Positions 3 to 27,852 of a stretch of 64,000 nt of DNA are shown here, in pieces. The position numbers and the translations under genes were made by a program. The notes beneath the pieces were generated by a model. That model was not told where the DNA came from and ran no database searches. It was given only the letters and a program-made list of their open reading frames with translations. This DNA is from a virus: the IMG/VR virus record IMGVR_UViG_3300009446_000004; one strand, 5' to 3'. Every line of letters begins with the position of its first letter. The first letter of the stretch is position 1.

Positions 3-779
3 GTACTAGATCCTGACTTCATAGGCAAGATCGATACACCAGCTATAAAGACGCCTGACTGTTTTACCAGCTCAGAGACCAGAATGCTTTCTTTGGATCA
101 ATTGGGGGACACTGGCAATATTGAAAACTGGACCGGAAACCCAACTATGCACAATTTCCTTGGCAGGTCAGCACTAACAGCTCAAGCCAATGCAGCCGAA
201 ATTGCACACAGCCAATTTATTTCTGATACACTGCTTGCTCGTAGACCTCATATAAGAGTAGCGCTAAGAGAGGCTTTCCCAACACTGGACCGCGCCACCA
301 GGGAATCATCCGAGTATGCTGGTATTGCCTTGTCAAAGTTTCAAGACTGTATCCAGCCTACCTACTCCCCTTTTCAGGAATGGATCAGGGCCAGGTTATA
401 CGGATCTAGTGAAGCGATTTTAACACACGATCAGGTACTTGGAGGGATATACTTCTTTGGTGAAGGGCAATGTTTCAGCTGCCATCATACCTACCACTTT
501 GCAGGAAATGAACCTCAGTCAATTGGTACGGCTGAAATAGGACGTTTCGAGTTTACAAAGGATTCCACTGATATCGGAAAAGTAGCCGTGCCGTCTTTGT
601 ATAATGTAACAGAGCATCCACCGTACTTTCATAACGGATCAGCCAAGACTATAAAAAAGGCGCTCAAGCAGCATTCTGATCACTTAGATATAGCAATGGA
701 TAGCAGACAGATATATCTAGTGGAGGAGTTCTTGGAGGCGCTGAGGGACCCGGTTATGAATCGATATGGAATTGATTAA
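3..779 (+). CDS. cytochrome c peroxidase / MauG-like heme protein, 5'-truncated
   Basis: Frame is open from base 3 (VLDPDFIGKIDTPAIKTPD...) through the track ORF. It has the heme motif CFSCH after G..FFGEGQ, then VPSLYNV...PPYFHNGS as in the C-terminal domain of di-heme peroxidases. Confidence 0.7.
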   Translation, partial: VLDPDFIGKIDTPAIKTPDCFTSSETRMLSLDQLGDTGNIENWTGNPTMHNFLGRSALTAQANAAEIAHSQFISDTLLARRPHIRVALREAFPTLDRATRESSEYAGIALSKFQDCIQPTYSPFQEWIRARLYGSSEAILTHDQVLGGIYFFGEGQCFSCHHTYHFAGNEPQSIGTAEIGRFEFTKDSTDIGKVAVPSLYNVTEHPPYFHNGSAKTIKKALKQHSDHLDIAMDSRQIYLVEEFLEALRDPVMNRYGID

Positions 780-2228: not shown

Positions 2229-2270
2229 ATCTGCTGTAAATATAAAGTAAATAACTGAGACTACAAAACA
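2229..2270 (-). promoter_or_regulatory. conserved phage promoter copy (Bacteroidota -33 TTTG / -7 TAnnTTTG type)
   Basis: Minus strand reads TTTTGTAGTCTCAGTTATTTACTTTATATTTACAGCAGAT, nearly identical to 8149-8190 and 27811-27852. Confidence 0.75.
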
Positions 2271-2319: not shown

Positions 2320-2853
2320 ATGGATGCACGATATGACTTGATATTCAAGCACACATTTAAGGTAGAGAAAGGATTTCAGAACGACCCAGACGATACGGGA
2401 AATTGGTATCATAAGAAGTTGATCGGCACCAAATATGGCATCATTCCTAGTACTTATTTCCGGTACTACAAAAAAAGGCCCACGGTTCAGGACATGCGCT
2501 CCCTGACATTGGATCAGGCTAAGGAAATAACCTATCATCTATTTTACCTTCAATTTGGTTGTGACAAGATCACAGACGACTATGTAGCACATTTGGTTAT
2601 GGATGCAATGTTCAACCACGGAGCGGGCGGCAAAGTCATACAAAGGGCCTGTAATGTACTAGGAGCAAAGCTACAGATAGATAATGCAATAGGACCCAAT
2701 ACACTTAAAGCTACCAATAGAGCCAATCCTGTGAGCTTGTACAATGAAATAAAATCACAGAGGCTAATGTATATGATGACTTTACATAATTGGTGGAAGT
2801 ACAAAAACGGCTGGATTAGGCGTATATGTTCATTCAACTACGGGGCTATTTAG
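2320..2853 (+). CDS. endolysin, glycoside hydrolase family 108 with C-terminal peptidoglycan-binding domain
   Basis: EKGFQNDPDDTGN...GTKYGI catalytic motif; MDAMFNHG, LQIDNAIGPNTL and GWIRR are typical of GH108 + PG_binding_3. Confidence 0.9.
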   Translation: MDARYDLIFKHTFKVEKGFQNDPDDTGNWYHKKLIGTKYGIIPSTYFRYYKKRPTVQDMRSLTLDQAKEITYHLFYLQFGCDKITDDYVAHLVMDAMFNHGAGGKVIQRACNVLGAKLQIDNAIGPNTLKATNRANPVSLYNEIKSQRLMYMMTLHNWWKYKNGWIRRICSFNYGAI

Positions 2854-3233
2854 CAGGGCCCAAAATTCAGATCATCCTTTATGTTGTTCATGTATTCCCA
2901 CAAAACGGTACCAATATTATCAAAAAATTGTCGCTGTGGAGCACAATATATATAAGGACTAGCTAGGTCCATTTCTTCCAGCAAGGAAACGACAATTTGA
3001 TAATCCTCTTCAATGATTACCTTTTCAAACACAATTGGAGTTCCTTTGTATGTGGCCCATCCCGCAAAATCCCTAGCATTGGATTCTGGAATGCCGAATA
3101 TCTTGGTAAGCAAATAGGCTGATTTTTCATCAATCACAAGCCTATCTATTTTGAAATATGGTTCAAGCGAAAGGTCCCTGCCACCTGAACACGGGGCATG
3201 ATGATCGGTAATATCTCTTTTAAATCTACTCAT
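2850..3233 (-). CDS. hypothetical protein (last gene of the FtsK operon)
   Basis: 127-aa ORF overlapping the upstream gene by 4 bp. Confidence 0.6.
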   Translation of the reverse strand: MSRFKRDITDHHAPCSGGRDLSLEPYFKIDRLVIDEKSAYLLTKIFGIPESNARDFAGWATYKGTPIVFEKVIIEEDYQIVVSLLEEMDLASPYIYCAPQRQFFDNIGTVLWEYMNNIKDDLNFGPC

Positions 3234-3469
3234 GATTTCAGTTCATTTTGTCGTCCTTTTTTGTAAATATAACCTAGCCCAATAATCAAAATCGGAACCA
3301 GCAGCACGGGATTCAATGTCGTTTCTGCGATCTTGTTAGCAGCCTCCAGTATCTCAGAGATTAGCCATATCGATGAGCAAACGCAAAGCCCTAGTGTAAA
3401 TATTGCGGCGACCATTACCAATTCCCTTTGGTCCTCCTCCTCTGTGATATTTGTTACCTTTTTTTTCAT
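3230..3469 (-). CDS. small two-TM membrane protein
   Basis: Likely start ATG 3469 (ATGA overlap with the upstream stop). Two hydrophobic runs: LVMVAAIFTLGLCVCSSIWLI and VLLVPILIIGLGYIY. Confidence 0.6.
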   Translation of the reverse strand: MKKKVTNITEEEDQRELVMVAAIFTLGLCVCSSIWLISEILEAANKIAETTLNPVLLVPILIIGLGYIYKKGRQNELKS

Positions 3470-3861
3470 AGTCCGTATTTGTACATCAAAAGCGATGTGA
3501 TTAATAAAATGATTTCCAACCCTATATCCAATACCACCAAAACAATCATCCATAACACAACCAGAAGATGAGAAAAAAGGGGCAATCTGCGCCATTCTGT
3601 GCGACCTGAGCCCCTCGCCTTTATCTGTAATCGTTTGGTCCCTCTTAGCAATCTCTGCTCCTCTTGGTATGCGTGGCATATCCTGATGGAGAATATTATC
3701 TTGACATTGCCGTCCTGATTCCCGTCAGTTGCTTTGTCCACGGCTTCCCTTCTTTTTTCAAGCTTGTTATCGGTCCACCCGATCTTATAAGCTGCTATCC
3801 TATTCTTGTCTTTCAATAGGTAGATCACAGTCTTTTTAGCGAACGGGTTAAAGTTGATCAC
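3466..3861 (-). CDS. GIY-YIG / T5orf172-like domain protein with C-terminal TM helix
   Basis: VIYLL...AYKIGWT...R and a terminal TEW motif, followed by a hydrophobic tail. Confidence 0.65.
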   Translation of the reverse strand: MINFNPFAKKTVIYLLKDKNRIAAYKIGWTDNKLEKRREAVDKATDGNQDGNVKIIFSIRICHAYQEEQRLLRGTKRLQIKARGSGRTEWRRLPLFSHLLVVLWMIVLVVLDIGLEIILLITSLLMYKYGL

Positions 3862-5257
3862 CTGTTGATTCGTTTTGTTGCTGGTATTCTTTGACTGCTT
3901 CGTAAATTCTTTGCGCCCTGGTAGCTCCTATCTTTACCCAGGTGGATTCCGGACCCACTCTCAGTCCTTGTTCCCTCATGAATTGCTTTTGCATCTTGCC
4001 ACCGTTTTCTATATGCTCTAATCCATGGCGCAAATACCGATCCTCTTTAGATTCTGACTTTTTGATTATTGGTGCCATGTGCTCGCGGTCTTTCAAAATT
4101 GTGGACGGTCCAGGGAATCTATCGGACATATCGAAAATGTAATCTACCAACTCAGATTCCGAGATAAAAGCCGATTGTGCGCGGTAGGTCACACCACCAT
4201 CCATAACAATCATATCGCCTTTATCAAGCAGATTGTGCGCGTTTGTTTCTGCTCCTAGTATTGCGCTGGAATCATGGGCTGAGGCAACGCGGAGGCATAT
4301 CTTCATTGGTAACTGGCTCTTTAACTCAACCGATAACACTTTGCTACTAGGTCGCTGTGTGGTGATAATAAGGCGTATTCCGGCTGATCTGGCTTTACGG
4401 CTTAATACCTGGCACATATCAATAAAATCGCCTTGTCGGTCTCCCATCGACGCCACAAGATCAGAAAATTCATCAAAGATAGCCACGATATGAAATCTGC
4501 TTTTTAGCATTTCGTTTTCCTGATCATTTTTGCCATCCAATGGTAGGTCCTCTATTTCTTTGCAGTGGAAGTGCTTTAGTACTTGGTACCTGTGACGCAT
4601 CTCTCCTACTAGCCTACGGATTGCCTCGAAAGCATCTAAAGGGTTTGTTATGATCGGATCAACTCCGGACTTCAGCGCCATCATAAAACAGGGCAACCCA
4701 TTCCACCGGGTAAACTGGTTTCCCTTGGGATCAAAGAATAGTATTTTGGTCCATTCTGGAGATCTTGAGCGAGTTAATCCAACCATAACAGAATCCAATA
4801 CAACCGACTTTCCGGATCCAGTTATTCCGGCTATCACAGCATGAGCGGACAGATTCAATATCAGCGGTTTCTTATCTGCCTGTAGTCCTAGGAAAACGGG
4901 ACACGGCATCGGTCGTCCTCCCATCATTGGCAACGTATCTGGAAACTCACCAAAGTACACCATTTGCCGATCTCTGGTTGGTACCATGATTCCAATGCGG
5001 TCATTGTCCTGCTCTTGGCCTATGTACTGAACTCCAGAAACCCCAAGCGAGACCCCAATATCTGATATTTTTCTTTTTACGTCTGAGGCCGTTTGCCCTT
5101 CCAGCAGATCAAAGTAGTAGATAGTGGCGTTTGGTCCATTTATGATCCGTAATTTATTGCCCCACTTGATCCCGTGGGTATTCAGTGCTGGATAAAAGTC
5201 AGATATCAGATCTTGGTTTGTTCTGGTTCGCTTTCTGCTAGTTGCTTGCTTAAACAC
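3848..5257 (-). CDS. FtsK/SpoIIIE-family DNA translocase ATPase (motor only, no N-terminal TM domain)
   Basis: Walker A AGITGSGKS, FFDPK, Walker B IVAIFDEFSDL, RKARSAGIRLIITTQRPS, LLDKGDMI; the C-terminal KIGATRAQRIYE resembles the gamma winged helix. Confidence 0.9.
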   Translation of the reverse strand: MFKQATSRKRTRTNQDLISDFYPALNTHGIKWGNKLRIINGPNATIYYFDLLEGQTASDVKRKISDIGVSLGVSGVQYIGQEQDNDRIGIMVPTRDRQMVYFGEFPDTLPMMGGRPMPCPVFLGLQADKKPLILNLSAHAVIAGITGSGKSVVLDSVMVGLTRSRSPEWTKILFFDPKGNQFTRWNGLPCFMMALKSGVDPIITNPLDAFEAIRRLVGEMRHRYQVLKHFHCKEIEDLPLDGKNDQENEMLKSRFHIVAIFDEFSDLVASMGDRQGDFIDMCQVLSRKARSAGIRLIITTQRPSSKVLSVELKSQLPMKICLRVASAHDSSAILGAETNAHNLLDKGDMIVMDGGVTYRAQSAFISESELVDYIFDMSDRFPGPSTILKDREHMAPIIKKSESKEDRYLRHGLEHIENGGKMQKQFMREQGLRVGPESTWVKIGATRAQRIYEAVKEYQQQNESTGDQL

Positions 5258-5317
5258 TTGTTTGTTTATTTTAATAACTCATTGAAATTTCCACATAGTT
5301 GATCCTGTTAAGACCCT

Positions 5318-5341
5318 TCGGACGGGCGGACGAAACGGACG
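5318..5341 (+). repeat. three CGGACG direct repeats in the intergenic region upstream of the FtsK gene
   Basis: TTCGGACGGGCGGACGAAACGGACG; copies at 5319, 5327 and 5336. Confidence 0.7.
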
Positions 5342-5391
5342 AACTACGGTATAGTGAGCTCGTTGATTTTTTAGGGTCGGTTTTTCGTCTG

Positions 5392-6129
5392 TTACCTGAA
5401 AATCTGTTTCCCCATCAAATAGCAAACAATATCAAGCAAGGATACCAAGAAGAAACCAAAATAGGCTAGCATCCCAGGGTTAAGATGAATCATCTTTTTT
5501 GCTCTGTCGAAGTGCATCCCTGACAGGGAGACATTTTCATGTGTGTTACCCATCAACCAGGTGAATAGTCTGCCCTTATGGTGATCTATTGCAAAATCAG
5601 TCAAGCTATCCCTATTGTTTGGCGTCTTTCCTTCTGCGAGTATATAATCAAAATCATCAGGGCCATTCTCTTTCATTAATTTGAAATTGGTGTAGTCCCG
5701 TTCATCGTGCTTGGTTGCATTCTCAAAATGAAACTTAGCTTGATGCCAGTTCTTATCCTTGTAATGTATTCCAACTCCGTGTTTATTCCTCAGTGTAGCA
5801 AACGGGAGTTCCTGGCCTGTTCTGGCTTTCTTCAAAAGCATATGATACACAAAAAATAAAGATCCAAGCAGCATCCAAAATGTAGCCCAAAACCAAAACC
5901 CATACCAAAAGCAAACTATTGTAACTATCAGACAGATAAATGATTTTAGTTGAGTCGTCGCAAACCTGTATAGCATTTTGATAACAAACGGCGAGGCAAC
6001 ACCTAGCATGAAATCAACTTGAGTCCATAGTAATAGCGCGACGGTCTTGAACCAATCGGAGTTCTTTTTCTTTTTTCTTTTACTCCCCATCATCTGTCTT
6101 TTTGAAGTTTTCCGAGGCAATATGTACAA
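5392..6129 (-). CDS. multi-pass membrane protein with a soluble central domain
   Basis: Basic N-terminus (KRKKKK), 2-3 hydrophobic helices, a soluble region and a C-terminal TM helix. Confidence 0.7.
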   Translation of the reverse strand: MYILPRKTSKRQMMGSKRKKKKNSDWFKTVALLLWTQVDFMLGVASPFVIKMLYRFATTQLKSFICLIVTIVCFWYGFWFWATFWMLLGSLFFVYHMLLKKARTGQELPFATLRNKHGVGIHYKDKNWHQAKFHFENATKHDERDYTNFKLMKENGPDDFDYILAEGKTPNNRDSLTDFAIDHHKGRLFTWLMGNTHENVSLSGMHFDRAKKMIHLNPGMLAYFGFFLVSLLDIVCYLMGKQIFR

Positions 6130-6994
6130 TTACAGCAAGAACCAACGAAGCACAAAACCCGTAAACATAGCCCCAAAAAGTTTGATCCGCCTTCGACCAG
6201 AAATGGATAAGTGTCAGGATAAAAGTTAGGCCAGTAATCGGAAAAATTCCGATCCAGTTCCGACCGCTATGTAAGGTCTTTGCAATCATTACCTCAGTAC
6301 CAACGGCTATTCCGATTCCGAAAAGGTAATCAGTCGGATGGCTGTAACCGCCTTGGGTTTGACCGTATGTTGCAACCATCATTCCGAAAGTGGCGAACCC
6401 GGTAATCAAAAGGGCAAAGGAATACAGACCGCGTTCCGACTGTAAATCCTTCTTTAATCGGTTTTGTTCCGACTTGAGAAACTTATCTAATCGTGAACTA
6501 ACATCGGCTAACTCAGCATTAAGGCCGGAAATCTCTGCTATTTTGCTTGATAAATCGGACCGGAATAGTTCATTTTCCAACCTTAAAAGATCATCATCGT
6601 TCCGAAGCTTTCGGATTATTTCGGTCAATTGTTCCGATTCGTTCCGACTATTTTGCAGGTCCGATCGGAGCTTGTCCGATTCATCAGCGGTTGGTTTGTC
6701 GGATTTTTCCGAAACATTTCCCGATTTTAGAAGATCCGATTTTAGCAATTCAAAGGCTTTACGATCCGATTTGCTACCTAGCAAAGTACCGTCCAACATT
6801 GGAGCTATAACCAAATCCAAACATCCGAAAGAACCATTAAATAGGATTTTGTTCCGACCTCCTGGCTTTATAACCGTCATCGGATCGTTTGGATTTTCGG
6901 TCTTGTATTTCTTGAGCTTTCGAGTTATTGCGGTGGATGCAGTGGATGAGTCAGATCCTGGGAATACTAATTTGGCTATTTCTGTGATCAGCAT
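6080..6994 (-). CDS. putative DNA-binding + coiled-coil + four-TM membrane protein
   Basis: Likely start ATG 6994 (MLITEIAKLVF, ACACCAC-type leader). N-terminal helix-turn-helix-like segment, heptad coiled coil and four C-terminal hydrophobic helices. Confidence 0.7.
   Translation of the reverse strand: MLITEIAKLVFPGSDSSTASTAITRKLKKYKTENPNDPMTVIKPGGRNKILFNGSFGCLDLVIAPMLDGTLLGSKSDRKAFELLKSDLLKSGNVSEKSDKPTADESDKLRSDLQNSRNESEQLTEIIRKLRNDDDLLRLENELFRSDLSSKIAEISGLNAELADVSSRLDKFLKSEQNRLKKDLQSERGLYSFALLITGFATFGMMVATYGQTQGGYSHPTDYLFGIGIAVGTEVMIAKTLHSGRNWIGIFPITGLTFILTLIHFWSKADQTFWGYVYGFCASLVLAVIVHIASENFKKTDDGE
6238..6884. repeat. dense array of TCCGA/TCGGA pentamers inside a coding sequence
   Basis: Hand count of 24 exact copies (17 TCCGA, 7 TCGGA on +), including inverted pairs such as TCCGATCGGA at 6660-6669. 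Confidence 0.85.
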
Positions 6995-7065
6995 TTTAAT
7001 CTTTGTGGTGTTAAAAAACCGCCACAGGAATCCGAGATCCTGTGACGGTAAACAAAACTCTAACC

Positions 7066-8010
7066 TTATTTCTGTGCTTCGACCCATTCATTAAGATCTT
7101 GGATCTTTTGAATCAAACGATTTGCGATCTTTTCACCCTTTGGTGTCTTATCGTTTTCCTGCATTTGTTTTAAGGTCTGGATCACCTGAAACAGATAATC
7201 AATGTAAGGACCAGTTGGATCTCCTGGATCCTCAGGGCTTTGGGTATTGGTGGTGATTTTTTGTAATTCACAAGCCCCAACAGCCACATGAGCTATAGGA
7301 GCCGTTTCGGGATTCCATGCAAAGTGCTCCGCCTCTGCATCTTTAAGACCTTCAGGTCGATCGTCGATGCTAGTTGTGTCCTCTTCTATTTCCTTGTTTA
7401 GCTGGTTTGCTATTTGCTGTCTTTCCTTTGCTTCAGCGTCCACTTTCCGTTGTGCGATTGCTTGAGCTCGCTCCTCTTCAGCAGCCAGTCTTTCATCCTC
7501 CTGAACTTTGAAACTTAGTTTTGCAAGTTTCAAAACTTGGGCGAATTGCTCTGTACTAAGATCCGCCGCGCTTGATCCCTTTGGGAAAACGTAGTGGCCT
7601 TGGTACGGCTTTAGCTGGACCATGCGCTCCTGACCCGTTTCGTATCGTTTCTTTGCTTCGGCCTGCTCTGCCAAAGTCTCGATCATTGCAAGCTTGTTCT
7701 CTACTGGCTTGCTTGTATCGTCAACCAACGATTGTAGGGCCCTAAGTGTGTTATCCAGGGGTTTAATCTGATTCCGGTCAGATTTAATATCGCCAGTAAC
7801 CGCAAGTCTAGCTCTGCGGATTTCAAGACGCTTGTCTTTGGCTTTCTTTTGACCTTCGTGGTCGTCGGCCTCAATATCTTGATCCAGTATTTCTGTAGCC
7901 TCAGAAATTAAGGTTTTGATAACGGCCATACCGCCGTCATACTTGGTTTCCAGTTCTGTTGCTTTTTCTAAGGCAACACCTGGATCTATTGCTTTTTTAA
8001 CTTCACTCAT
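7066..8010 (-). CDS. coiled-coil protein (DUF1351-like)
   Basis: Likely start ATG 8010 after the leftward promoter. Long charged helices (EIRRARLAV...NQIKPLDN...KPVENKL). Confidence 0.5.
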   Translation of the reverse strand: MSEVKKAIDPGVALEKATELETKYDGGMAVIKTLISEATEILDQDIEADDHEGQKKAKDKRLEIRRARLAVTGDIKSDRNQIKPLDNTLRALQSLVDDTSKPVENKLAMIETLAEQAEAKKRYETGQERMVQLKPYQGHYVFPKGSSAADLSTEQFAQVLKLAKLSFKVQEDERLAAEEERAQAIAQRKVDAEAKERQQIANQLNKEIEEDTTSIDDRPEGLKDAEAEHFAWNPETAPIAHVAVGACELQKITTNTQSPEDPGDPTGPYIDYLFQVIQTLKQMQENDKTPKGEKIANRLIQKIQDLNEWVEAQK

Positions 8011-8038: not shown

Positions 8039-8080
8039 ACGCAAATATAAAGTAAATAAACGAAATGCAGAAACAATGCG
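8039..8080 (-). promoter_or_regulatory. leftward promoter (Bacteroidota type)
   Basis: Minus strand TTGTTTCTGCATTTCGTTTATTTACTTTATATTTGCGT contains TATATTTG. Confidence 0.7.
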
Positions 8081-8148: not shown

Positions 8149-8190
8149 TTTTGTGGTTTCAGATATTTACTTTATATTTACAGCAGATTA
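8149..8190 (+). promoter_or_regulatory. rightward conserved phage promoter
   Basis: TTTTGTGGTTTCAGATATTTACTTTATATTTACAGCAGATTA, back-to-back with 8039-8080. Confidence 0.75.
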
Positions 8191-13531: not shown

Positions 13532-13981
13532 ATGAAGCCAGTAAATCAGGTCGTTCAAGACCTATACAACATCAACATAACAGGAGTTGCGATACCTCGA
13601 TCGTGGAGGCTGCACATACGCAAGATCACAAATCGATCCAACAAACCGTACGAACAAGCCATTAACATACTATCACACGTATGCTTTCAGTACGAAGGTA
13701 TTGAAAGCCGTGATTATTCTGGTGCACCTATCCTGTGTCAAAAGTTTGATGGAGACGCTTATGCTATGAGCTATAGGGAAATAGAGTCCACCCTTGAATA
13801 CTCTGCTGATGTAGCAAGAGAGGCAATCAAATACCTAGTCAAATCAGGTCTGTTAGTCCAAGAGATCATAGATGTTGTGGTGCTCAAAAATGGAACAAAG
13901 TTATCCAATGTGATGTACCTGATTCCGGTGCCTAGCGAGATTCAAAAAATAACTTACTTCCCTTCAAAACTACACCTGTGA
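13532..13981 (+). CDS. replication initiator N-terminal-domain paralog (stand-alone)
   Basis: Aligns by eye along its length with the N-terminus of 13978-15306; likely start ATG 13532. Confidence 0.7.
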   Translation: MKPVNQVVQDLYNINITGVAIPRSWRLHIRKITNRSNKPYEQAINILSHVCFQYEGIESRDYSGAPILCQKFDGDAYAMSYREIESTLEYSADVAREAIKYLVKSGLLVQEIIDVVVLKNGTKLSNVMYLIPVPSEIQKITYFPSKLHL

Positions 13982-15306
13982 AGAAAGCTAATCAGATCGT
14001 CCAAGACCTAAGCGAGCTAAATTTTGCTGGTAATATTACCCCAGCATCTTGGTGGCGCCACATACTAAAGGTCAACAACAAAGTCAACCAGCCTTGGGAT
14101 AGAGCAATTAATATATTGGCAGAGATATGCTATCAATATCGTGGTGTATTGCTTCCTGATTCTGCTGGAAGCTCTTGCCTGTACCAGAAGTTCAACGGTG
14201 ATGCTTATTCAATGAGCTACCGACAATTAAAGAACCGATTTGGGTATAGCAAAGATGTCGCGAGACCTGCTATTGATTACCTACACGATTCCAAATTAAT
14301 AATCAAACACATTGAGGATTGCGTAACACTGCCAAACGGTAGAAAGCTATACAATGTGATGTACCTAATTCCAATTCCCGCCAATATAGCCAAGATCACC
14401 TATAATACATGGGAAAACGATAGTACGGAGGAGGATAAAGACAATGACTATCTAAACACAGGGGGTAGCAGTCTATTGCCATCTACCCCTAGCGGTCTAT
14501 TGCCATCTACCCCTAGCGGGCTATTGCCTACTACAAATACAGAGATTACTATTACAGAGAAAGAGATAGATAGAAAGGGAGAAATTTTAAATGATCATTT
14601 AAAAACTTGTTTCCAATCAAGCCCCGAAAACGAAGAAGGCGCCACAAATGATGAAAATCTATATATAGAGGGAAATGAAATGTCTCCTAGTGAGAGGCTA
14701 CTGGCCTACTATTCCGAGAAAGGGCTGATGCAGATCCCGAAACGAAAGCGAGACGATAACGCTAGGGCTATGTTTCACGCACTGGCAAGGAAAGGCCCAA
14801 AGTACAAAGGGAGCAAAGGCGTAACAGGCGCAAAGACGTTGTTGAGGCTCTACGGTGAGCAATGGGACTTGGCAGGTGAAAAAGATGGAATGACAAACCT
14901 AAGATCATTAAGCCAAATGCTAGGCGGCTATGTAGGCGCTGTAATGGCCTCAGAGGAGCGCAAAGGCGAAATCAAGGTAAAACCACATTGGAAGGCCGAA
15001 ATGCTCCCAGCGGACGCAGGACAGGCACAGACGGAGCTTTTAGATCACTTCAAGGCAAACCCAAAAGAGCTAGATAATTTAATCAGAGGCTTTGAGTGGG
15101 TCAATTGGGAATCAATGGTGGAGGACTTCGTGCTGCATTATTGGGTAACAGCGGACAAACCGATACTAAACTTGGAAAAGGCAAAAGCCAAGCTTAGGGC
15201 TACATGGATCAAGCGAGCGAGGCGCGAAGACCAGGAGGAGGAAGAGCCACGGAAAAAATTAAGAAACCAAGGAGGCGGATCAGTGTACGATCGCTATAAA
15301 ACTTAG
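13978..15306 (+). CDS. phage replication initiator protein
   Basis: N-terminal wHTH-type domain (GNITPASWW...SYRQLKNRFGYSK), an internal repeat linker followed by TEITITEKE, and a position within the replication block. Confidence 0.7.
   Translation: MKKANQIVQDLSELNFAGNITPASWWRHILKVNNKVNQPWDRAINILAEICYQYRGVLLPDSAGSSCLYQKFNGDAYSMSYRQLKNRFGYSKDVARPAIDYLHDSKLIIKHIEDCVTLPNGRKLYNVMYLIPIPANIAKITYNTWENDSTEEDKDNDYLNTGGSSLLPSTPSGLLPSTPSGLLPTTNTEITITEKEIDRKGEILNDHLKTCFQSSPENEEGATNDENLYIEGNEMSPSERLLAYYSEKGLMQIPKRKRDDNARAMFHALARKGPKYKGSKGVTGAKTLLRLYGEQWDLAGEKDGMTNLRSLSQMLGGYVGAVMASEERKGEIKVKPHWKAEMLPADAGQAQTELLDHFKANPKELDNLIRGFEWVNWESMVEDFVLHYWVTADKPILNLEKAKAKLRATWIKRARREDQEEEEPRKKLRNQGGGSVYDRYKT
14460..14534 (+). 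repeat. 24-bp iterons, probable replication origin inside the initiator gene
   Basis: CTATTGCCATCTACCCCTAGCGG(T/G) at 14473 and 14497, a partial third copy at 14521, and an inverted half-site GGGGTAG just upstream. Confidence 0.7.
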
Positions 15307-27810: not shown

Positions 27811-27852
27811 TTTTGTAGTCTCAGACATTTGCTTTATATTTACGGCATATTA
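27811..27852 (+). promoter_or_regulatory. conserved phage promoter copy driving the SNF2 / GNAT-MTase operon
   Basis: TTTTGTAGTCTCAGACATTTGCTTTATATTTACGGCATATTA matches the copies at 2229 and 8149. Confidence 0.75.

What the first reader, a model, noticed from the sequence alone, without database searches (positions are those of the whole stretch)
2850..6994. Phage-encoded FtsK motor plus separate membrane proteins: candidate DNA segregation or cell-to-cell spreading system
Seen: a leftward gene block of HTH-like/coiled-coil/4-TM protein, multi-TM protein, anchor-less FtsK ATPase with a gamma-like C-terminus, membrane-tailed GIY-YIG/T5orf172 protein and small 2-TM protein. Established: Streptomyces TraB (FtsK/SpoIIIE family) moves dsDNA by recognising short clt repeats, and Spd membrane proteins such as SpdB2 (coiled coil + 4 TM) spread plasmids along filaments. 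Inference: a tailed phage with an iteron origin and no visible integrase may use an analogous machine to partition or pass its genome across septa, which would matter in filamentous Bacteroidota.
Basis: partly seen in the sequence, partly recalled or inferred. Interest (0 to 1): 0.8.

Follow-up and report, generated by a model that had tools for sequence, protein, structure and literature searches.

The report
Phage FtsK pump with docking array
A marine tailed phage, probably of Bacteroidota, joins an anchor-less FtsK-type DNA pump to orphan membrane proteins, and one of their genes hides 27 copies of a 5-base motif; the layout matches the Streptomyces plasmid DNA-transfer machinery with no sequence kinship beyond the motor, and its function is untested.

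Summary
The gene block is real. It is a leftward operon of a 76.7-kb marine phage contig, in this order: F (304 aa: soluble N-domain, amphipathic helix, 3-4 TM), E (233 aa, multi-TM), an anchor-less FtsK alpha-beta motor (469 aa), a marginal T5orf172 protein with a hydrophobic tail, a 2-TM protein (79 aa) and a 127-aa protein. Start and stop codons overlap at all but one junction. The "gamma-like" C-terminus of the FtsK is not supported.

The main addition is a DNA array. 27 of the contig's 91 TCCGA/TCGGA sites lie in 1 kb covering gene F. The same protein recoded with the phage's codon usage gives 3.6 +/- 1.8 sites against 26 observed, and the sites fall in all three frames and both orientations.

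F is a true ORFan, so co-occurrence in relatives cannot be tested. The same layout does recur without homology in two actinomycete phages, an IMG/VR contig and Thermobifida phage P1312: a 4-TM protein gene carrying its own short-motif array, next to an FtsK-like gene. Their membrane protein belongs to a family that sits beside tra genes in actinomycete integrative conjugative elements.

The Tra/Spd/clt analogy is therefore partly supported as architecture, not as membership. A role in segregation or spreading is inference. This scan has noted similar modules before, in phages of actinomycetes, Chloroflexota and cyanobacteria.

The parts
8042..8057 (-). Leftward early promoter element. It is one of three exact copies of a 16-mer (ATTTACTTTATATTTR) that contains a Bacteroidota-type -7 box, TAnnTTTG.
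   Evidence: Exact copies lie at 2237(-), 8042(-) and 8165(+). Sequence read.
7066..8010 (-). G: 314-aa coiled-coil-rich protein and first gene of the leftward transcript. Its language-model features resemble DUF1351-like viral proteins (a lead only).
   Evidence: No Pfam, PHROG or NCBIfam hit.
7018..7049 (-). Terminator-like hairpin (12 pairs followed by a T6 run) between G and F. Genes F to A would need read-through, as delayed-early genes do. Its loop carries one motif copy.
6080..6994 (-). F: 304-aa ORFan with a soluble N-domain of about 70 aa, an amphipathic or coiled-coil helix (~75-190) and 3-4 TM segments (190-293). It is the proposed membrane anchor and array binder.
   Evidence: It is an ORFan in both large protein searches. 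The Atlas fold neighbours are Bro-N/pRha-like at low TM-score.
6056..7035 (.). Array of 27 TCCGA/TCGGA sites (19 TCCGA and 8 TCGGA on the + strand), irregularly spaced, with some palindromes (6601-6615, 6660-6669). It is superimposed on gene F.
   Evidence: 27 of the contig's 91 sites lie here. Codon resampling gives 3.6 +/- 1.8 against 26 observed, with 0 of 5000 resamples reaching it. It is the strongest local 5-mer cluster in the contig, Poisson p about 1e-26.
5392..6093 (-). E: 233-aa membrane protein with 3-4 TM segments and a soluble stretch of about 115 aa. Its start overlaps the end of F by 14 nt.
   Evidence: No family hits.
5319..5340 (-). Three copies of CGTCCG spaced 8-9 bp apart, in the 134-nt gap upstream of the FtsK gene. 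The last copy forms a TCCGA site. Possibly an operator or a further docking site.
3848..5257 (-). Anchor-less FtsK-like alpha-beta motor ATPase of 469 aa. Walker A is at residues 144-151, Walker B at D262/E263 and TQRPS at 300-304. The C-terminal ~95 aa are unassigned.
   Evidence: The gamma domain was not detected.
3466..3861 (-). C: 131-aa protein with a marginal T5orf172 (GIY-YIG-like) domain and a hydrophobic C-terminal tail. Its GTG start overlaps the end of the FtsK gene by 14 nt.
   Evidence: The frame of the tail is ambiguous.
3230..3469 (-). B: 79-aa 2-TM protein with charged ends, a holin-like topology. It starts in an ATGA overlap with C.
2850..3233 (-). A: 127-aa soluble ORFan and last gene of the operon. 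It starts in an ATGA overlap with B and converges on the GH108 endolysin gene (2320-2853, + strand).

Best explanation
The block is a phage-borne, membrane-associated DNA-handling module that acts on the phage's own chromosome. It is built like the Tra/Spd/clt apparatus of actinomycete plasmids but assembled from unrelated parts.

Proposed mechanism:
1. F oligomerises through its helical region, sits in the cytoplasmic membrane by its 3-4 TM segments, and binds the 27-site TCCGA/TCGGA array written into its own gene. This tethers that part of the phage genome to the membrane.
2. The anchor-less FtsK alpha-beta hexamer lacks both the membrane domain and the sequence-reading gamma domain of cellular FtsK. 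It is recruited there by F and/or the other membrane proteins (E, the T5orf172 protein, the 2-TM protein) and pumps phage double-stranded DNA. F and the motor together would supply the full FtsK domain set in two polypeptides.
3. The favoured role, by analogy only, is segregation of phage genomes to daughter cells or across septa.

Shown: the genes, the motor's integrity, the array and its statistics, and the recurrence of the layout elsewhere. Inferred: who binds the array, that the proteins form a complex, and the biological role.
For: 1. The array is real and acts at the DNA level. 26 sites lie in gene F against 3.6 +/- 1.8 expected for the same protein (0 of 5000 resamples). They fall in all three frames and both orientations. 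It is the most extreme 5-mer cluster in the contig, and more extreme than the best cluster in any of 80 other phage FtsK loci.
2. F is still coding in its own frame in all three of its parts.
3. The motor is intact and has no anchor.
4. F-E, FtsK-C, C-B and B-A overlap start on stop. Spd operons are likewise translationally coupled (PMC4447253).
5. Independent analogues exist. IMG/VR phage contig L024 is a genuine tailed phage (tape measure, major head, portal and terminase). It has a 321-aa protein with C-terminal TM segments whose gene carries (C)CAGAA(G) sites: 23 in the ORF against 11.1 +/- 1.3 on codon shuffling, in all frames. A 4-TM protein and an anchor-less FtsK alpha-beta-gamma follow. 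Thermobifida phage P1312 has the homologous membrane protein, with 48 GG[AT]CCGG sites in its gene (shuffle 17 +/- 3.8), next to its annotated FtsK-like ATPase.
6. That membrane-protein family has more than 960 members. In Kribbella and Micromonospora it sits directly upstream of a ~735-aa tra-like gene, with prim-pol, and in Kribbella also Xis and an integrase. Repeat arrays lie just 3' of the tra-like gene, in the classical clt position.
7. Published precedents: TraB binds clt repeats; SpdB2 (coiled coil plus 4 TM) binds DNA and TraB (PMC4447253); SpdA2 binds a site inside its own gene and affects segregational stability (PMC4170104).
Against: - No protein here other than the motor has any relative, so conservation of the module cannot be shown.
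- F shows no homology to the actinomycete family.
- DNA binding by F is not demonstrated: there is no Pfam hit and the fold is unusable.
- The complex prediction gave no verdict.
- Overlapping genes are common in phages whatever their function.
- Only 1 of 80 IMG/VR phage FtsK loci (L024) shows the layout. P1312 was found separately, through L024's membrane protein.
- Three metagenomic anchor-less FtsK loci have no TM neighbours.
- There is no sign that the phage persists as a plasmid or that its host forms filaments.
- The 2-TM protein lies next to an endolysin gene and could simply be a holin.
Confidence: 0.4

Rival explanations
1. The genes are unrelated neighbours. The FtsK-like protein is a stand-alone accessory motor, as in cluster J mycobacteriophages or SPO1-like Bacillus phages, acting in replication or recombination. 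The small membrane proteins serve lysis (holin or antiholin next to the endolysin) or superinfection exclusion. The array is a separate cis element, for example a regulatory or silencing site, a nuclease barrier or a centromere for a host factor, that happens to lie in F.
For: - Anchor-less phage FtsK genes are widespread: 296 phage records match. Their role is unknown (PMC3706429, PMC11536984).
- Three such metagenomic loci have no TM neighbours.
- B has a class-II-holin-like size and topology and lies 380 bp from the GH108 endolysin gene.
- PHROGs files phage FtsK proteins under 'moron, auxiliary metabolic gene and host takeover'.
Against: - The same three-part layout (TM-protein gene with its own array, further TM proteins, FtsK-like gene) recurs in two unrelated phages, and in the Kribbella and Micromonospora elements the same TM-protein family sits next to the tra-like gene, with the array just 3' of it.
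- The endolysin gene is on the opposite strand and in a different transcription unit.
- The genes from F to A form one tight leftward block behind a single terminator.
Confidence: 0.3
2. The module is a genome-entry or membrane-replication device. It is expressed from the first DNA to enter the cell, holds the phage chromosome at the membrane through the array, and either pulls the rest of the genome in or organises membrane-attached replication. From my own knowledge, phi29 p16.7 and p17 and the T5 two-step transfer are comparable cases.
For: - The block lies in the early region, next to two divergent copies of the early promoter 16-mer.
- F has the same parts as phi29 p16.7 (TM, coiled coil, DNA-binding domain) in reverse order. 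This rests on my own knowledge, not on a test.
- The array implies action on the phage's own DNA.
Against: - No FtsK-type motor is known to import a phage genome.
- The genome ends are unknown: the contig breaks inside a long gene in every assembly.
- The block lies behind a terminator, so it is not the very first gene set expressed.
- The replication origin appears to be elsewhere, at the 3 x 24-bp iterons at 14466-14537.
Confidence: 0.15
3. The module is for defence or host takeover. A membrane complex with a DNA pump and a GIY-YIG-like nuclease domain excludes superinfecting DNA or acts on the host chromosome.
For: - The motor matches the FtsK-like parts of the SspH and mad8 defence proteins in PADLOC.
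- T5orf172 belongs to the GIY-YIG nuclease clan (marginal).
Against: - The PADLOC matches cover only the generic motor, and no other component of those systems is present.
- A dense array on the phage's own genome is not explained by this reading.
Confidence: 0.1

Closest known systems
TraB / clt / SpdB2 dsDNA transfer and spreading system of Streptomyces plasmids (pSVH1, pIJ101, pWTY27; PMC4447253, PMC3583192)
   Same: - An FtsK-family hexameric motor.
- A nearby array of short repeats. Published clt repeats are 5-9 bp, direct and/or inverted.
- A partner protein with a coiled coil and four TM helices.
- Translationally coupled small membrane-protein genes.
   Different: - The motor here is of the FtsK type, not TraB: 46 bits to NCBIfam plasmid_TraB against a cut-off of 800.
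- It has no TM segment and no detectable C-terminal wHTH.
- The array has 27 copies of a 5-mer, lies inside the coding sequence of the membrane-protein gene, and is upstream of the motor gene rather than at its 3' end.
- The host is probably Bacteroidota, where no such system is described.
- The partner proteins show no sequence similarity.
SpdA2 / sps of pIJ101 (PMC4170104)
   Same: A Spd-operon DNA-binding protein whose specific binding site lies inside its own coding region. It has an effect on segregational stability.
   Different: sps is a single palindrome, not a 27-site array. SpdA2 is not described there as a 4-TM membrane protein. It was not compared by sequence.
Phage-borne relatives of the Tra/Spd module: IMG/VR contig IMGVR_UViG_3300010047_000005 (locus L024), Thermobifida phage P1312 ORF62-63 (KT021004.1), and the Streptomyces plasmid-phage pZL12 (Zhong 2010, cited in PMC3583192)
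   Same: L024 and P1312 are tailed phages that carry an FtsK-like ATPase next to a protein with a soluble N-part and C-terminal 4 TM, whose own gene holds a dense short-motif array in all frames.
   Different: - These are high-GC actinomycete phages.
- Their membrane protein belongs to a large actinomycete family with which F shares nothing.
- The motifs differ: CCAGAAG and GG[AT]CCGG against TCCGA.
- P1312 has a serine recombinase (PMC4569894), whereas no integrase was seen here.
Anchor-less FtsK-like proteins of cluster J mycobacteriophages (Omega gp203; PMC3706429)
   Same: The central FtsK motor is kept, the N-terminal membrane domain is missing, and the C-terminus differs from known gamma domains. 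The function is unknown.
   Different: In the one cluster J locus inspected (phage Schatzie) the immediate neighbours have no TM segments. No repeat array stood out in the IMG/VR loci scanned, which were not identified to cluster.

Membership tests
FtsK/SpoIIIE ATPase family (PF01580) | RecA-like beta motor domain with Walker A, Walker B and an arginine finger, scoring above the Pfam cut-off | tested here: met
   87 bits against a cut-off of 24. 1e-34 to solved FtsK motors 2IUS/2IUU. The invariant motifs are conserved.
Cellular FtsK (NCBIfam NF007615) | N-terminal 4-TM membrane domain | tested here: not met
   No hydrophobic segment. No FtsK_4TM hit. 115 bits against an equivalog cut-off of 1566.
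Cellular FtsK (NCBIfam NF007615) | C-terminal gamma winged-helix domain (PF09397) | tested here: not met
   No hit at E<=10. hhalign probability 9.5% over 16 residues. The fold is low-confidence and shows no wing.
Streptomyces TraB (NCBIfam NF041214) | Whole-protein match above the curated cut-off | tested here: not met
   46.4 bits against 800, on the motor only.
Streptomyces TraB / clt system | Array of short repeats (clt) next to the motor gene | tested here: met
   27 TCCGA/TCGGA sites lie 0.8-1.8 kb upstream of the motor gene. Their position (inside another gene, upstream) differs from the classical site at the 3' end of tra, which I recovered in two integrative conjugative elements.
Streptomyces TraB / clt system | Motor C-terminal wHTH that reads the repeats | tested here: inconclusive
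   The C-terminal 98 aa have no family hit, and the model has pLDDT 58.
SpdB2-like spread proteins | Coiled coil plus four TM helices; oligomeric, DNA-binding and pore-forming (PMC4447253) | tested here: inconclusive
   F has the helical periodicity and 3-4 TM segments. DNA binding, pores and oligomers cannot be tested here. There is no similarity to the actinomycete family found beside tra genes (hhalign 0.1%).
T5orf172 / GIY-YIG clan (PF10544) | Score above the Pfam gathering cut-off | tested here: met
   22 bits against 20, E=2.4e-4, which is marginal. No PHROG or NCBIfam support.
ParABS-type plasmid partition | ParA, ParM or TubZ NTPase plus a centromere-binding protein | tested here: not met
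   No such Pfam family appears in the precomputed tables for any called gene of the contig.

The most novel reading that the evidence does not exclude
A phage of Bacteroidota has assembled, from an FtsK motor and unrelated orphan proteins, a functional equivalent of the Streptomyces Tra/Spd/clt machine. It would be a 'split FtsK', in which the membrane anchor and the DNA-sequence reader sit on one protein (F) and the motor on another, with the docking site encoded inside the anchor's own gene. It would move or partition phage dsDNA without virions. This would extend FtsK-type dsDNA transfer or segregation of mobile elements to a phylum where it is unknown, and would show that such machines arise convergently.
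Probability: 0.2. Interest if true: 0.85.

Novelty: new variant of a known kind. Interest (0 to 1): 0.7.

Why it matters
FtsK-like genes are common in phages, and nobody knows what they do. This locus offers a concrete, testable hypothesis: a motor, a candidate membrane anchor and a sharply defined cis site of 27 short motifs that can be recoded synonymously.

The same design is present in a cultured phage, Thermobifida P1312, so the idea can be tested at the bench now. If the idea holds, virion-independent movement or membrane-based partition of phage genomes would not be a peculiarity of Streptomyces plasmids but a recurrent solution in several phyla.

The result also shows that cis-acting arrays can be hidden inside coding sequence, where annotation pipelines do not look.

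Tried and rejected
- **Single-sequence AlphaFold2.** Models of the F N-domain (pLDDT 46) and the FtsK C-terminus (pLDDT 58) were unusable, so no fold search was run.
- **Complex prediction.** FtsK with F(1-190) gave no verdict. This is not evidence either way.
- **Gamma domain.** Pfam at E<=10 and hhalign against a 16-sequence gamma profile were both negative.
- **Relatives of F.** None was found by the word-seeded search of 5.8 billion proteins, by phmmer against 1.84 billion representatives, or by tblastn of plasmids. hhalign of F against the actinomycete Spd-like family gave 0.1%, and BLASTP found nothing.
- **Close relatives of the phage in IMG/VR.** FtsK, TerL and the exonuclease found none. 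Megablast of 20 kb against phages found none.
- **KOPS-like polarity of the motif around the genome.** S=18 against a null of 5.5 +/- 8.1, P=0.07, so rejected.
- **Depletion of the motif outside the array.** z=-2.95, but CG-containing control 5-mers deviate as much, so it is not specific.
- **Helical phasing of the sites.** No robust period.
- **The array as an artefact of peptide repeats or a non-coding region.** Rejected: the sites lie in all frames and F's frame has the best coding score.
- **Arrays near FtsK in other loci that turned out not to be analogous.** L030 is the host ftsK inside a provirus call, with 12-bp tandem repeats. L058 is a ParM/ParR/parC-like cassette. L080, L082, L084, L087 and L089 are single-frame peptide repeats.
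- **By-eye likeness of the actinomycete family's N-terminal HTH to FtsK gamma.** hhalign gave 4.5%, so not supported.
- **PADLOC.** Only generic motor matches.
- **Whole genome.** No whole genome is held for this window.

Full report
**Context.** The window is 64 kb of a 76,666-bp marine-metagenome contig. The same sequence appears in an ENA assembly, a Logan assembly and a JGI assembly, probably all from one sample. I rebuilt the whole contig from the window and its flanks. It has no terminal overlap, and in every assembly it breaks inside one long + strand gene.

It is a tailed phage. It has a terminase, a tape-measure-like protein, a DnaN clamp, a primase-helicase, SNF2 helicases and a GH108 endolysin. 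No integrase, recombinase or Par protein appears in the precomputed Pfam tables of any called gene. An XRE-type repressor-like gene lies just outside the window.

The host is probably Bacteroidota, on three grounds:
- Genes lack Shine-Dalgarno sequences and have A-rich leaders.
- The early promoters carry the TAnnTTTG -7 box within a 16-mer that is present in three exact copies.
- The nearest TerL proteins are those of Flavobacterium phages, at 32-37% identity.

Nothing bears on whether that host is filamentous.

**The observation.** The leftward block exists. Transcription would start at the promoter copy at 8042-8057 and run through G (7066-8010, a 314-aa coiled-coil-rich protein). It then meets a strong terminator-like hairpin at 7049-7018. 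After the hairpin come six genes:
- F, 6080-6994, 304 aa
- E, 5392-6093, 233 aa
- the FtsK-like gene, 3848-5257, 469 aa
- C, 3466-3861, 131 aa
- B, 3230-3469, 79 aa
- A, 2850-3233, 127 aa

The block ends head-on against the endolysin gene. F-E and FtsK-C overlap by 14 nt, and C-B and B-A by ATGA.

- **F.** The 31 codons upstream have no coding signal and contain the hairpin. F has 3-4 C-terminal TM segments. Residues ~75-190 show significant 3.5-residue hydrophobic periodicity.
- **E.** It has 3-4 TM segments.
- **The FtsK-like protein.** It is an intact alpha-beta motor. PF01580 matches at 1.6e-24, the solved FtsK motors at 1e-34, and all invariant motifs are present. It has no TM segment.
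- **The motor's last ~95 residues.** They are not detectably a gamma domain.
- **T5orf172.** It sits just above the Pfam cut-off. The frame of its hydrophobic tail is ambiguous.

**The array.** I tested that claim.
- Of 91 sites in the 76.7-kb contig, 27 lie between 6056 and 7031.
- Recoding the F protein with the phage's own codon usage gives 3.6 +/- 1.8 sites against 26 observed. None of 5000 resamples reached that number, and the largest was 12.
- Shuffling F's own skewed codons gives 10.6 +/- 2.1, with a maximum of 18.
- The sites occupy all three frames and both orientations. Some form palindromes.
- F's Ser and Arg codons are bent towards TCG, CGA and CGG.
- It is by far the strongest local 5-mer cluster in the contig, with Poisson p about 1e-26 against 6e-10 for the next unrelated one.
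- F still scores as coding in its own frame in each of its three parts.

This is therefore a cis element written over a gene. It is not the replication origin, which is more likely the 3 x 24-bp iterons at 14466-14537. I found no helical phasing, no significant genome-wide polarity (P=0.07) and no specific depletion outside the array.

**Relatives and co-occurrence.** The motor's nearest relatives are cellular FtsK proteins at 29-32% identity. F has no relative at all, either in the word-seeded search of 5.8 billion proteins or in an exhaustive phmmer search of 1.84 billion representatives. Close relatives of the phage are absent from IMG/VR and GenBank phages. The refutation test 'do the genes co-occur elsewhere' therefore cannot be run by homology.

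**Analogues.** I collected 80 IMG/VR loci that encode FtsK-like proteins and scanned each for local k-mer clusters. None is as extreme as this window. Most clusters are peptide repeats or unrelated elements. One locus, L024, has the same layout.
- **L024.** It is a genuine tailed phage of 66% GC. It has a 321-aa protein with a soluble N-part and C-terminal TM segments. That gene and its flanks carry about 38 (C)CAGAA(G) sites: 23 in the ORF against 11.1 +/- 1.3 on codon shuffling, in all frames and both orientations. Small TM proteins and an anchor-less FtsK alpha-beta-gamma follow.
- **Thermobifida phage P1312.** Its ORF62 is the homologue of that membrane protein (51% identity over the TM part) and lies next to ORF63, annotated as FtsK/SpoIIIE. 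ORF62 holds 48 of the locus's 51 GG[AT]CCGG sites (shuffle 17 +/- 3.8, all frames). The P1312 paper mentions only a possible role of ORF63 in DNA segregation (PMC4569894).
- **The family.** It has more than 960 members in Actinomycetota and no Pfam model, and is often misnamed 'ABC transporter permease'. In Kribbella flavida and Micromonospora sp. L5 it lies directly upstream of a ~735-aa tra-like gene, together with a prim-pol gene; the Kribbella element also carries Xis and an integrase. There the repeat arrays lie just 3' of the tra-like gene, in the classical clt position.
- **Nocardia plasmids.** In Nocardia plasmids of about 60 kb the same protein lies next to ParA and a ParB-like protein.

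F shows no similarity to this family. The resemblance is one of design, not descent.

**What is known.** TraB of Streptomyces plasmids is an FtsK-like hexamer that binds short repeats in clt through a C-terminal wHTH. SpdB2 has a coiled coil and four TM helices, binds DNA and TraB, and forms pores. The spd genes are translationally coupled. [quoted passage not shown] SpdA2 of pIJ101 binds a site inside its own coding region and affects segregational stability (PMC4170104). A Streptomyces plasmid-phage with transfer genes, pZL12, is on record (cited in PMC3583192). Anchor-less FtsK proteins with odd C-termini are known in cluster J mycobacteriophages, with no known function (PMC3706429). Earlier notes of this scan report Tra/clt/Spd-like modules in phages of actinomycetes, filamentous Chloroflexota and filamentous cyanobacteria. 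I did not check those notes.

**Reading.** The best-supported explanation, which I put at about 0.4, is a membrane-associated DNA-handling module acting on the phage's own chromosome. F would tether the array to the membrane. Segregation or cross-septal spread is the favoured role, by analogy only.

The rivals are:
- unrelated neighbours, meaning an accessory motor, lysis or exclusion membrane proteins and an independent cis element (0.3);
- a genome-entry or membrane-replication device (0.15);
- defence or host takeover (0.1).

Membership in the TraB or SpdB2 families is not supported: TraB scores 46 bits against a cut-off of 800. The claim stands at 'works like', not 'is a'.

**Verdict.** This is a new variant of a known kind, and its in-gene array makes it unusually testable.

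Noticed in passing
window 14466-14537, also 13533-13564/13979-14010 and 13888-13926/14334-14372: Three tandem 24-bp iterons lie inside the 442-aa gene at 13978-15306. Two further repeat pairs are spaced 446 bp apart. The spacing suggests that the 178-aa gene and the start of the 442-aa gene are tandem paralogues, with a lambda-O-like origin inside the initiator gene.
   Followed up: partly
window 2237-2252(-), 8042-8057(-), 8165-8180(+), 27827-27842(+, 1 mismatch): An exact 16-mer (ATTTACTTTATATTTR) containing TAnnTTTG marks what look like early promoters. The two copies at ~8.1 kb are divergent and form a 23-nt inverted repeat.
   Followed up: partly
window 3-779, extending left of the window (363 aa in all): A MauG / di-haem cytochrome c peroxidase-like gene sits alone on the + strand inside the phage's leftward early region. 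It is a possible auxiliary metabolic gene (NCBIfam TIGR03981, 67 bits, below cut-off).
   Followed up: partly
both contig ends (window-equivalent positions -6932 and 69734): All assemblies break at the same two points, inside long + strand ORFs (387 aa open at the 5' end and 1256 aa open at the 3' end). These are probably one very long tail-fibre-like gene interrupted by a variable or repeated stretch, so the genome may be circularly closed apart from that gap.
   Followed up: partly
L058:2514-3790 (IMGVR_UViG_2791355488_000004): A low-GC phage with an FtsK-like gene also carries what looks like a ParM-like actin, a 75-aa ParR-like protein and about 14 AGTAA sites in 200 bp. This would be a type II partition cassette, 3 kb upstream of two TM proteins and the FtsK-like gene.
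   Followed up: partly
L030:6208-6976 (IMGVR_UViG_2671180292_000001, called a provirus): Two opposed arrays of GGAAC at about 12-bp spacing (14 and 12 copies) lie in and just after a 339-aa 4-TM gene, directly upstream of a full-length cellular-type ftsK. They may be host DNA inside the provirus call. Unexplained.
   Followed up: partly
L098 (Nocardia farcinica plasmid NZ_CP086601.1) and two other Nocardia plasmids of 60-65 kb: These plasmids are about the size of phage P1312. They carry the same Spd-like TM protein next to ParA and a ParB-like protein, with a weak GTGAACAC array in the gene. They may be phage-plasmids.
   Followed up: partly
L007:985-5389 (Bacillus phage 043JT007): In this SPO1-like phage the anchor-less 749-aa FtsK-like translocase is directly preceded by four TM-protein genes (1, 2, 5 and 1 TM segments). 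This is another motor-plus-separate-membrane-proteins layout. I did not scan it for an array.
   Followed up: partly
window 6390-7094 (+): A 234-aa ORF is open on the strand opposite gene F. P1312 likewise has an annotated antisense ORF over its array-bearing gene. This is probably a side effect of the stop-free motif composition rather than a gene.
   Followed up: no
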